Assembly (NCBI RefSeq): GCF_003018255.1
Contig: NZ_CP027440.1
Direction: 5' to 3' (one strand)
DNA length: 64,000 bases
Source: Escherichia coli
GTDB lineage: Bacteria; Pseudomonadota; Gammaproteobacteria; Enterobacterales; Enterobacteriaceae
Shown piece after piece: positions 624 to 2,382 of this stretch. The notes beneath the pieces were generated by a model. It did no database searches, was not told where the DNA came from, and saw nothing but the letters and a program-made list of their open reading frames with translations. Made by a program: the position numbers and the translations under genes. Every line of letters begins with the position of its first letter. Within the stretch, counting starts at the first letter, position 1.

Positions 624-2382
624 ATGGCTACGAAGAAGAGAAGTGGAGAAGAAATAAATGACCAACAAATCTTATGCGGGATGGGTATTAAACTACGCCG
701 CTTAACTGCGGGTATCTGCCTGGTAACTCAACTTGTGTTCCCTATGGCTGCGGCAGCACAAGGTGTGGTAAACGCCGCAACCCAACAACCAGTTCCTGCA
801 CAAATCGCCATTGCAAATGCCAATACGGTGCCCTATACCCTTGGAGCGCTGGAATCGGCCCAAAGCGTTGCCGAACGTTTCGGTATTTCGTTGGCTGAGT
901 TACGCAAACTCAACCAGTTTCGTACGTTTGCTCGAGGTTTTGATAATGTCCGCCAGGGTGATGAACTGGATGTCCCGGCACAAGTTAGTGAAAAAAAATT
1001 AACCCCGCCGCCGGGTAATAGCAGTGACAACCTTGAGCAACAGATAGCCAGTACTTCACAGCAAATCGGGTCTCTGCTCGCCGAAGATATGAACAGCGAG
1101 CAAGCGGCCAATATGGCGCGTGGATGGGCCTCTTCTCAGGCATCTGGCGCAATGACAGACTGGTTAAGCCGCTTCGGTACCGCAAGAATCACGCTGGGCG
1201 TGGATGAAGATTTTAGCCTGAAGAATTCCCAGTTCGATTTTCTCCATCCATGGTATGAAACGCCTGATAATCTCTTTTTCAGCCAGCATACCCTCCACCG
1301 TACTGACGAACGTACGCAGATTAACAACGGCTTGGGTTGGCGTCATTTCACTCCCACATGGATGTCGGGCATCAACTTCTTTTTCGACCACGATCTTAAG
1401 CGCAGAAACGAGCTATGGTGGGGCGCAAACAGTAGATATAACGCTGGTGGCAGGCCCGGCAGACGCCTCGCAGTCCGTCCTTAAAAACAACCGGTCATCA
1501 CTGAAAGGGGACTTTACCGAAAGTGCTGAACTATATCTTGTTTTACACGATCTATCAGGTCATCCGATCAATGTTTCTGAAGGGCTGGAATTTGTGCAAT
1601 CAGGTACCAACGTGTCCTATGTGCAAATCAGCACAATTGATTACACTCAAAATTTATACGGTGAGTATAAAGCCACTGTTACAGGCGGCGGAGAGGGTAT
1701 CGCAACGCTGATCCCCGTGTTGAATGGTGTTCACCAGGCGGGTCTGAGTACCACGATAGAATTCATTAGCGCGGGAACCAGACCAATGAACGGTACAGTA
1801 TCAGTGAATGGTGCAAACCTACCTGCAGCTTCATTCCCTTCGCAGGGATTTACCGGGGCGTATTATCAGTTGAATAATGACAACTTTGCACCAGGAAAAA
1901 CGGCGGCTGATTATGCGTTTTCAAGCACTGCCTCCTGGGTTGATGTTGATACTTCCGGTAAGGTGACATTCAAAAATGTTGGAGATAGAAATGCTGTAAT
2001 AATCACGGCGACCCCAAGATCAGGTGGCGCTATTTACCAAACGCAAGTACGGGTGAAGGGCTGGTGGGTGAATCACGGTAATAACCTCATGCAATTAAGC
2101 CAGGCTGAAAACTACTGCAGCAACCAGGTCGGTAATGGCTACCCCCTTCCCCGCGCGGACCTTTTAAGCAATGGGCACATGCGGCGCGAAATAGGGTCAC
2201 TGTATGGTGAGTGGGGAGATATGGGAAATTACATGAAGGAAGCTGATTTTTATTCAATGGTATATTGGTCTTCTAATTCCGCAGGCGCAGGCCAACAATA
2301 CATTGTATCCCTGGAAACAGGGACGCAAAACACTTATCAAACGTATGAATTTTTTTATGGGGCGTGTTATAAACAGATTTAA
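624..2382 (+). pseudogene. yeeJ: Inverse-autotransporter adhesin YeeJ, internally deleted and frameshifted
   Basis: ORF 549-1484 encodes a LysM plus intimin/invasin-type beta-domain N-terminus; ORF 1255-2382 in another frame encodes Big-domain repeats and the lectin-like C-terminus ending CYKQI. The two frames overlap and the whole locus is about 1.8 kb instead of about 7 kb. Confidence 0.8.

What the first reader, a model, noticed from the sequence alone, without database searches (positions are those of the whole stretch)
624..2382. yeeJ adhesin reduced to a frameshifted stub of about 1.8 kb
The N-terminal LysM and beta-barrel region is followed out of frame, at about 1390-1410, by the C-terminal Big and lectin-like region, so almost the entire repeat region of the inverse autotransporter is deleted. 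This is a clear adhesin loss next to asnT.
Basis: partly seen in the sequence, partly recalled or inferred. Interest (0 to 1): 0.4.

Follow-up and report, generated by a model that had tools for sequence, protein, structure and literature searches.

The report
Deleted, frameshifted yeeJ adhesin remnant
The E. coli surface adhesin gene yeeJ has lost about 6 kb of its middle here and is a dead remnant; this is real, but yeeJ loss is common and already documented in E. coli, so it is ordinary.

Summary
Window 624-2382 is yeeJ with one internal deletion, directly downstream of the first tRNA-Asn gene (236-311).

- **Junction:** it lies at 1397-1398 (GATCT|TA|AGCGCAG), and the two ends share only the dinucleotide TA.
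- **Size and frame:** the deletion removes 5333 nt relative to K-12 and 6248 nt relative to the closest full-length allele (CB209, 8007 nt). Both lengths are 2 mod 3, so the 3' part is out of frame.
- **5' ORF:** it keeps 258 native residues (signal peptide, LysM, about 42% of the beta-barrel), then 28 frameshifted residues and a stop at 1482-1484.
- **3' part:** 327 codons encode the last Ig-like domain, an invasin D4-like domain and the lectin-like tip.

It is not an assembly artefact. The same junction occurs in 6 of 5426 complete E. coli genomes (USA, Japan, China) and in one metagenome contig. Neither breakpoint lies in DNA repeated elsewhere in the gene.

It is not unusual. About 45% of complete genomes lack the distal barrel segment, other lineages carry remnants with other breakpoints, and the literature reports intact yeeJ in only 35-40% of strains. 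RefSeq already annotates this allele as pseudogene pieces. Verdict: a null allele, of low interest.

The parts
236..311 (+). tRNA-Asn (GTT), the asnT position upstream of yeeJ
   Evidence: ARAGORN and Rfam tRNA at 72.6 bits. It has the same position as the tRNA-Asn between mtfA and yeeJ in the K-12 derivative L002.
624..1397 (+). yeeJ 5' arm: 258 native codons covering the signal peptide, LysM and the first ~42% of the inverse-autotransporter beta-barrel
   Evidence: 97.3% identical to K-12 yeeJ codons 1-258 without gaps. Pfam IAT_beta positions 2-123 of 279 at E 1.9e-36, LysM weak at E 0.33. NCBIfam IatC N-terminal domain at E 1.5e-106, far below its cut-off because the protein is truncated.
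1397..1398 (+). Deletion junction: the dinucleotide TA shared by both parental ends
   Evidence: Comparison with the full-length alleles of the K-12 derivative, ES7, WG5 and CB209. Left parent ...GATCT TA GCCG, right parent ...CACGG TA AGCG.
1398..1484 (+). Frameshifted tail of the 5' ORF (28 codons, KRRNELWW...) ending with the stop codon at 1482-1484
   Evidence: ORF 549-1484; reading of the sequence.
1399..2382 (+). yeeJ 3' arm: the last 327 codons plus stop, in the +1 frame. It encodes the last 16 residues of the penultimate Ig-like domain, one Invasin_D3-type Ig domain, an Invasin_D4-like domain and the C-type lectin-like tip.
   Evidence: 100% identical to five carrier genomes and 98.6% to full-length alleles such as CB209. 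Pfam. Match to invasin 1CWV. Domain map of full-length CB209 YeeJ.
2404..2435 (+). Terminator-like hairpin with a T-run after the yeeJ stop codon
   Evidence: Consensus scan. This is a pattern match only.

Best explanation
This is a null allele of the inverse-autotransporter adhesin gene yeeJ. It was made by one illegitimate (non-homologous) deletion of about 6.2 kb, which joined codon 258, inside the beta-barrel, to codon 2341 of a 2668-codon ancestor across a 2-bp microhomology (TA). The 5' ORF can at most give a 286-residue product with a signal peptide, LysM, about 42% of the barrel residues and a 28-residue nonsense tail. That product cannot form the outer-membrane pore. The 3' 327 codons are out of frame and have no signal peptide or barrel to export them. 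The cell therefore displays no YeeJ. The junction, the frames, the domain content and the distribution are shown by tool results. The loss of function is inferred from how inverse autotransporters work: a complete barrel is needed to secrete the passenger. The allele is inherited, not an artefact. It sits in several flanking haplotypes, so it has either been moved by homologous recombination or outlived recombination in its flanks.
For: Collinear two-arm alignment to four full-length alleles, with the same breakpoints in each. The deleted length is 5333 nt (K-12 derivative), 5642 (ES7), 6239 (WG5) and 6248 (CB209), all 2 mod 3. Out-of-frame overlapping ORFs. Barrel kept only to model position 123 of 279, against the full barrel at residues 144-419 in CB209. 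In CB209, 17 Ig-like domains and most of an 18th lie inside the deleted residues 259-2341. The identical junction is present in 2014C-3338, JNE120442, JNEC-KY177, JNE23-011, JNE112863 and DETEC-S792 and in metagenome contig OLFA01006025.1. PGAP marks the pieces as pseudogenes in these genomes. There is no DNA homology between the breakpoint regions.
Against: Nothing contradicts it. Expression was not tested. Both arms remain free of further stops or indels, and the 3' arm differs from the closest full-length allele by 8 synonymous and 6 non-synonymous codon changes. That count is too small to show either decay or constraint. In two genomes PGAP calls the 3' piece an intact 311-aa protein (WP_001563543.1, GTG start at window 1447).
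Confidence: 0.95

Rival explanations
1. Assembly artefact: the Ig-like repeats collapsed during assembly and the real gene is full length.
For: YeeJ contains many Big_1 repeats. Martinez-Gil et al. 2017 warn that some apparent yeeJ frameshifts could be assembly errors.
Against: The left breakpoint is in the unique barrel sequence, not in a repeat. The right breakpoint region has no DNA match upstream in the gene, and the ends share only TA. The same junction occurs in six complete genomes from three countries and in one metagenome contig. A repeat collapse would be expected to stay in frame, and this deletion does not.
Confidence: 0.01
2. The remnants are still used. Either the 5' ORF makes a periplasmic LysM peptidoglycan-binding protein, or the 3' ORF makes a separate 311-375 aa invasin-D3/lectin protein, as PGAP annotates in two genomes.
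For: The promoter region, start codon, signal peptide and LysM are intact and collinear with K-12. Both ORFs are free of extra stops. The allele persists nearly unchanged in diverged backgrounds.
Against: The 3' ORF has no signal peptide, and I see no Shine-Dalgarno-like sequence before GTG 1447 or ATG 1255 (my reading). Divergence among the carriers' copies is at most 0.2%, so the lack of decay is uninformative. yeeJ is barely expressed even when intact. A half barrel is expected to be degraded in the periplasm (general knowledge of OMP quality control, not tested).
Confidence: 0.04

Closest known systems
YeeJ of E. coli K-12 MG1655 (2358 aa) and the longer UMN026-type variant (Martinez-Gil et al. 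2017, PMC5595812)
   Same: Same locus (mtfA-asnT-yeeJ-GT9-shiA). The 5' 774 nt are 97.3% identical to K-12. The architecture of the ancestor is the same: signal peptide, LysM, IAT beta-barrel, Big_1 repeats, lectin-like tip. The closest full-length alleles (CB209 type, 2668 aa) belong to the long class.
   Different: Residues 259-2341 (CB209 numbering) are deleted and the ends are out of frame. The 3' arm is only 79% identical to K-12 but 98.6% identical to CB209-type alleles.
Other yeeJ remnants in E. coli: ST540 and CFT073 ('yeeJ-negative' in Martinez-Gil 2017), Nissle 1917 and other strains with HPI at asnT, HH35, ZF34
   Same: All have large internal or 5' deletions that leave pieces of yeeJ between asnT (or an island inserted there) and the GT9 gene, and all are annotated as pseudogene fragments.
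   Different: The breakpoints differ. HH35 and ST540 lose everything after about window 714-716. Nissle keeps the equivalent of window 899-1230 and part of the 3' end. ZF34 has lost the 5' end to an integrase-bearing island and has a different internal deletion. These are independent events.
The identical allele in RefSeq genomes 2014C-3338, JNE120442, JNEC-KY177, JNE23-011, JNE112863 and DETEC-S792
   Same: Same junction. Five of the six differ from the window at 1-3 positions over 624-2382.
   Different: DETEC-S792 has a different left arm (27 differences over 349-1319, including a 3-bp deletion). The window has a different right flank from about 2522 onward.

Membership tests
Inverse autotransporter (type Ve secretion) adhesin, YeeJ orthologue | Located at the yeeJ locus, between asnT and the GT9 gene/shiA | tested here: met
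   Collinear with the K-12 derivative, ES7, WG5 and CB209 loci.
Inverse autotransporter (type Ve secretion) adhesin, YeeJ orthologue | N-terminal signal peptide and LysM domain | tested here: inconclusive
   The sequence is 97-99% identical to intact YeeJ over codons 1-258, and the LysM domain of YeeJ has been shown experimentally. Pfam LysM alone is weak (E 0.33). No signal-peptide predictor was available.
Inverse autotransporter (type Ve secretion) adhesin, YeeJ orthologue | Complete IAT beta-barrel (PF11924, 279 positions) | tested here: not met
   Only model positions 2-123 are present. The full-length CB209 protein matches positions 2-279.
Inverse autotransporter (type Ve secretion) adhesin, YeeJ orthologue | Passenger of tandem Big_1/Ig-like domains in frame with the barrel | tested here: not met
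   17 domains and most of an 18th are deleted. The remaining Invasin_D3 and D4 domains are in the +1 frame.
Inverse autotransporter (type Ve secretion) adhesin, YeeJ orthologue | C-terminal C-type lectin-like domain | tested here: inconclusive
   Intimin_C is weak (E 0.49). The alignment to invasin 1CWV runs to chain residue 463 of 492, into the region I recall as the lectin-like D5; that assignment is my recollection and was not tested. No structure was predicted.
Pseudogene (deletion plus frameshift) | Homology to an intact gene elsewhere, with a disrupted reading frame and loss of essential domains | tested here: met
   PGAP annotates the same sequence as 'incomplete; partial in the middle of a contig'.

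The most novel reading that the evidence does not exclude
The deletion allele is not just drifting. The near-identical stub (at most 3 differences in 1759 nt) sits in chromosomes that differ by about 1.2% around it, and it has different left or right flanks in DETEC-S792 and in the window. This could mean that the null allele is transferred between lineages by homologous recombination and kept because losing YeeJ, or retaining a periplasmic LysM stub, is advantageous.
Probability: 0.07. Interest if true: 0.35.

Novelty: already known. Interest (0 to 1): 0.1.

Why it matters
It matters little beyond correct annotation. This strain cannot make the YeeJ biofilm adhesin, and the 311-aa 'invasin domain 3-containing protein' called in some RefSeq genomes is the tail of a pseudogene. 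It is one more independent example of the frequent loss of yeeJ across E. coli, and of how readily the asnT-yeeJ region is reshuffled by recombination.

Tried and rejected
- **Repeat collapse.** I blasted the left-breakpoint region (CB209 1100-1700) against the rest of the gene, and the right-breakpoint region against everything upstream. Only chance 10-11-mers turned up, so I rejected it.
- **IS- or island-mediated deletion.** No IS or integrase sequence lies at the junction in the window. An RNA-family scan of 1-5000 found only the tRNA.
- **Selection on the remnants.** Counts against the closest full-length alleles were 8 synonymous / 6 non-synonymous codon changes in the 3' arm and 5 / 2 in the 5' arm. 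These are too few to interpret.
- **Neighbouring GT9 gene as an autotransporter heptosyltransferase.** There was no PDB sequence match, and only weak LPS heptosyltransferase I/II matches far below cut-off. I did not pursue it.
- **Promoter scan of 300-2700.** It gave no more sites than shuffled sequence.
- **Literature.** A search for 'yeeJ' plus 'pseudogene' found nothing specific to this allele.

Full report
**What is in the sequence**

A tRNA-Asn(GTT) gene lies at 236-311. An ORF begins at ATG 624 with MATKKRSGEEIND..., the YeeJ N-terminus, and stops at 1482-1484. A second ORF in the +1 frame is open from 1255 to the stop at 2380-2382.

Blastn against the yeeJ locus of a K-12 derivative (L002) gives two collinear arms. 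Window 1-1398 matches L002 2271-3669 at 97.7%. Window 1397-4000 matches L002 9001-11589 at 89.4%. The same two-arm pattern, with the same window breakpoints, appears against the full-length alleles of ES7, WG5 and CB209.

**The junction**

Printing the parental sequences shows these three sequences:

- Left parent: ...CGACCACGATCT-TA-GCCGTTACC...
- Right parent: ...AGCGTCACGG-TA-AGCGCAGAAACG...
- Window: ...CGACCACGATCT-TA-AGCGCAGAAACG...

The ends therefore share only TA (window 1397-1398).

The missing stretch, measured against each full-length allele, is as follows.

| Reference allele | Deleted length (nt) | Length mod 3 |
|---|---|---|
| K-12 derivative | 5333 | 2 |
| ES7 | 5642 | 2 |
| WG5 | 6239 | 2 |
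| CB209 (closest full-length, gene 8007 nt) | 6248 | 2 |

This explains the +1 frame of the 3' arm. In CB209 numbering, residues 259-2341 of 2668 are gone.

**What is kept and what is lost**

- The 5' product is 286 aa: 258 native residues plus 28 frameshifted ones. It matches Pfam IAT_beta only over model positions 2-123 of 279, plus a weak LysM hit.
- The full-length CB209 protein matches the whole barrel (residues 144-419). After it come about 19 Big_1/Invasin_D3-type Ig-like domains, then an Invasin_D4-like domain.
- 17 of those Ig-like domains and all but 16 residues of the 18th fall inside the deletion.
- The 3' 327 codons match Invasin_D3, Invasin_D4 and, weakly, the Intimin_C lectin domain. 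They align to residues 193-463 of Yersinia invasin 1CWV at E 7.7e-15.

**Real or artefact**

Three results argue against that.

- The left breakpoint is in unique barrel sequence. Neither breakpoint region has a DNA match elsewhere in the gene beyond chance 10-11-mers.
- The deletion is out of frame and joined at 2 bp. This looks like illegitimate recombination, not unequal recombination between repeats.
- The identical junction is present in six of 5426 complete RefSeq E. coli genomes: 2014C-3338 (USA), JNE120442, JNEC-KY177, JNE23-011 and JNE112863 (Japan), and DETEC-S792 (China). It is also present in a 1.3 kb metagenome contig, OLFA01006025.1, which aligns to window 261-1561 at 99.5%.

PGAP annotates the two arms in these genomes as 'incomplete; partial in the middle of a contig' pseudogenes. 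In two genomes it instead calls the 3' arm a 311-aa 'invasin domain 3-containing protein', WP_001563543.1, starting at the GTG equivalent to window 1447. That call is most likely an annotation artefact: the product has no signal peptide or translocator, and I see no obvious ribosome-binding site (my reading).

**How it works, or fails to**

Inverse autotransporters need a complete N-terminal barrel to insert in the outer membrane and to thread the C-terminal passenger out. This is established knowledge of type Ve secretion, and the YeeJ domain roles are described in PMC5595812.

Here only about 115 of 276 barrel residues remain, and the passenger remnant is out of frame. I infer that no YeeJ is displayed and that the allele is null. 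Expression was not tested. Even intact yeeJ is barely expressed under laboratory conditions, with PNPase acting as a repressor.

**How unusual it is**

It is not unusual as a kind of event.

- Martinez-Gil et al. 2017 found intact yeeJ in 38 of 96 genomes and 15 more with disrupting mutations or deletions. Goh et al. 2019 found a complete gene in 35% of 126 genomes.
- In the present collection, 5197 of 5426 genomes keep some sequence of this locus, but only 2964 keep the distal half of the barrel. So about 45% cannot make YeeJ.
- Other remnants have other breakpoints: HH35 and ST540 (5' end lost after about window 714-716), Nissle 1917 (HPI inserted at asnT, scrambled fragments) and ZF34 (island plus a different internal deletion).

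The specific allele in the window is rare (6 of 5426 genomes). The phenomenon is common and published.

**Population detail**

Over 624-2382 the window differs from five carriers at only 1-3 positions. Over the next 40 kb it differs from JNE120442 by about 12 positions per kb, and by up to 53 per kb in the his operon.

From 2522 onward the window differs from all six carriers at about 55 sites in 1.2 kb, and its closest matches there (99.4%) are a different set of strains that includes Nissle 1917. DETEC-S792 has the same junction but a different left arm, with 27 differences over 349-1319.

The stub therefore sits in at least three flanking haplotypes. This is expected in a region known for recombination, but it leaves open a small chance that the null allele itself is being spread.

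**Verdict**

The assembly-artefact alternative is rejected. This is an ordinary, already annotated pseudogene allele of a frequently lost adhesin gene.

Noticed in passing
window 2644-3696 (- strand), stop at 3280-3282: The family-9 glycosyltransferase gene next to yeeJ (K-12 yeeL homologue) carries a nonsense codon, Q139* (TAG), in the window. It is intact (350 aa) in the six carriers of the yeeJ stub and in Nissle 1917. K-12 has an independent stop, Q235*. Both neighbours are therefore dead here, through separate events.
   Followed up: partly
window 2383-2522 (boundary); 2522-3760: There is a recombination boundary here. The yeeJ stub is almost identical to five carrier genomes, but from 2522 on the window differs from all six at about 55 sites. 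Its best matches for that stretch are at 99.4%, and none are identical.
   Followed up: partly
L014 (DETEC-S792), equivalent to window 349-1319: This carrier has the same deletion junction but a different left arm. It shows 27 substitutions and a 3-bp in-frame deletion at window 1005-1007, which implies a recombination end within about 80 nt of the junction.
   Followed up: no
window 1447-2382; L010 1447-2382, L012 2549-3484: RefSeq/PGAP is inconsistent. The same 3' fragment is a pseudogene in four genomes and an 'intact' 311-aa protein (WP_001563543.1, GTG start) in two.
   Followed up: yes
window 236-311, 8395-8470 (-), 10219-10294, 12628-12703: All four tRNA-Asn genes of this region are present, and none has an island beside it: there is no HPI or other large insertion. 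The window is collinear with JNE120442 over 1-42982.
   Followed up: partly
window ~12.7-34.2 kb: A cobUST-pocR-pduF and pduA-V propanediol-utilisation cluster lies here, judged by collinearity with the annotated JNE120442 locus. Only 360 of 5426 genomes cover at least 80% of window 1-25000 in one place.
   Followed up: no
window ~42-64 kb: The his operon is followed by an O-antigen cluster of the O185 family (wzx and wzy named as such in the best hits). The best identity is only 97.5%, and just six genomes cover at least 80% of the stretch. The his genes differ from JNE120442 by 2-5%.
   Followed up: no
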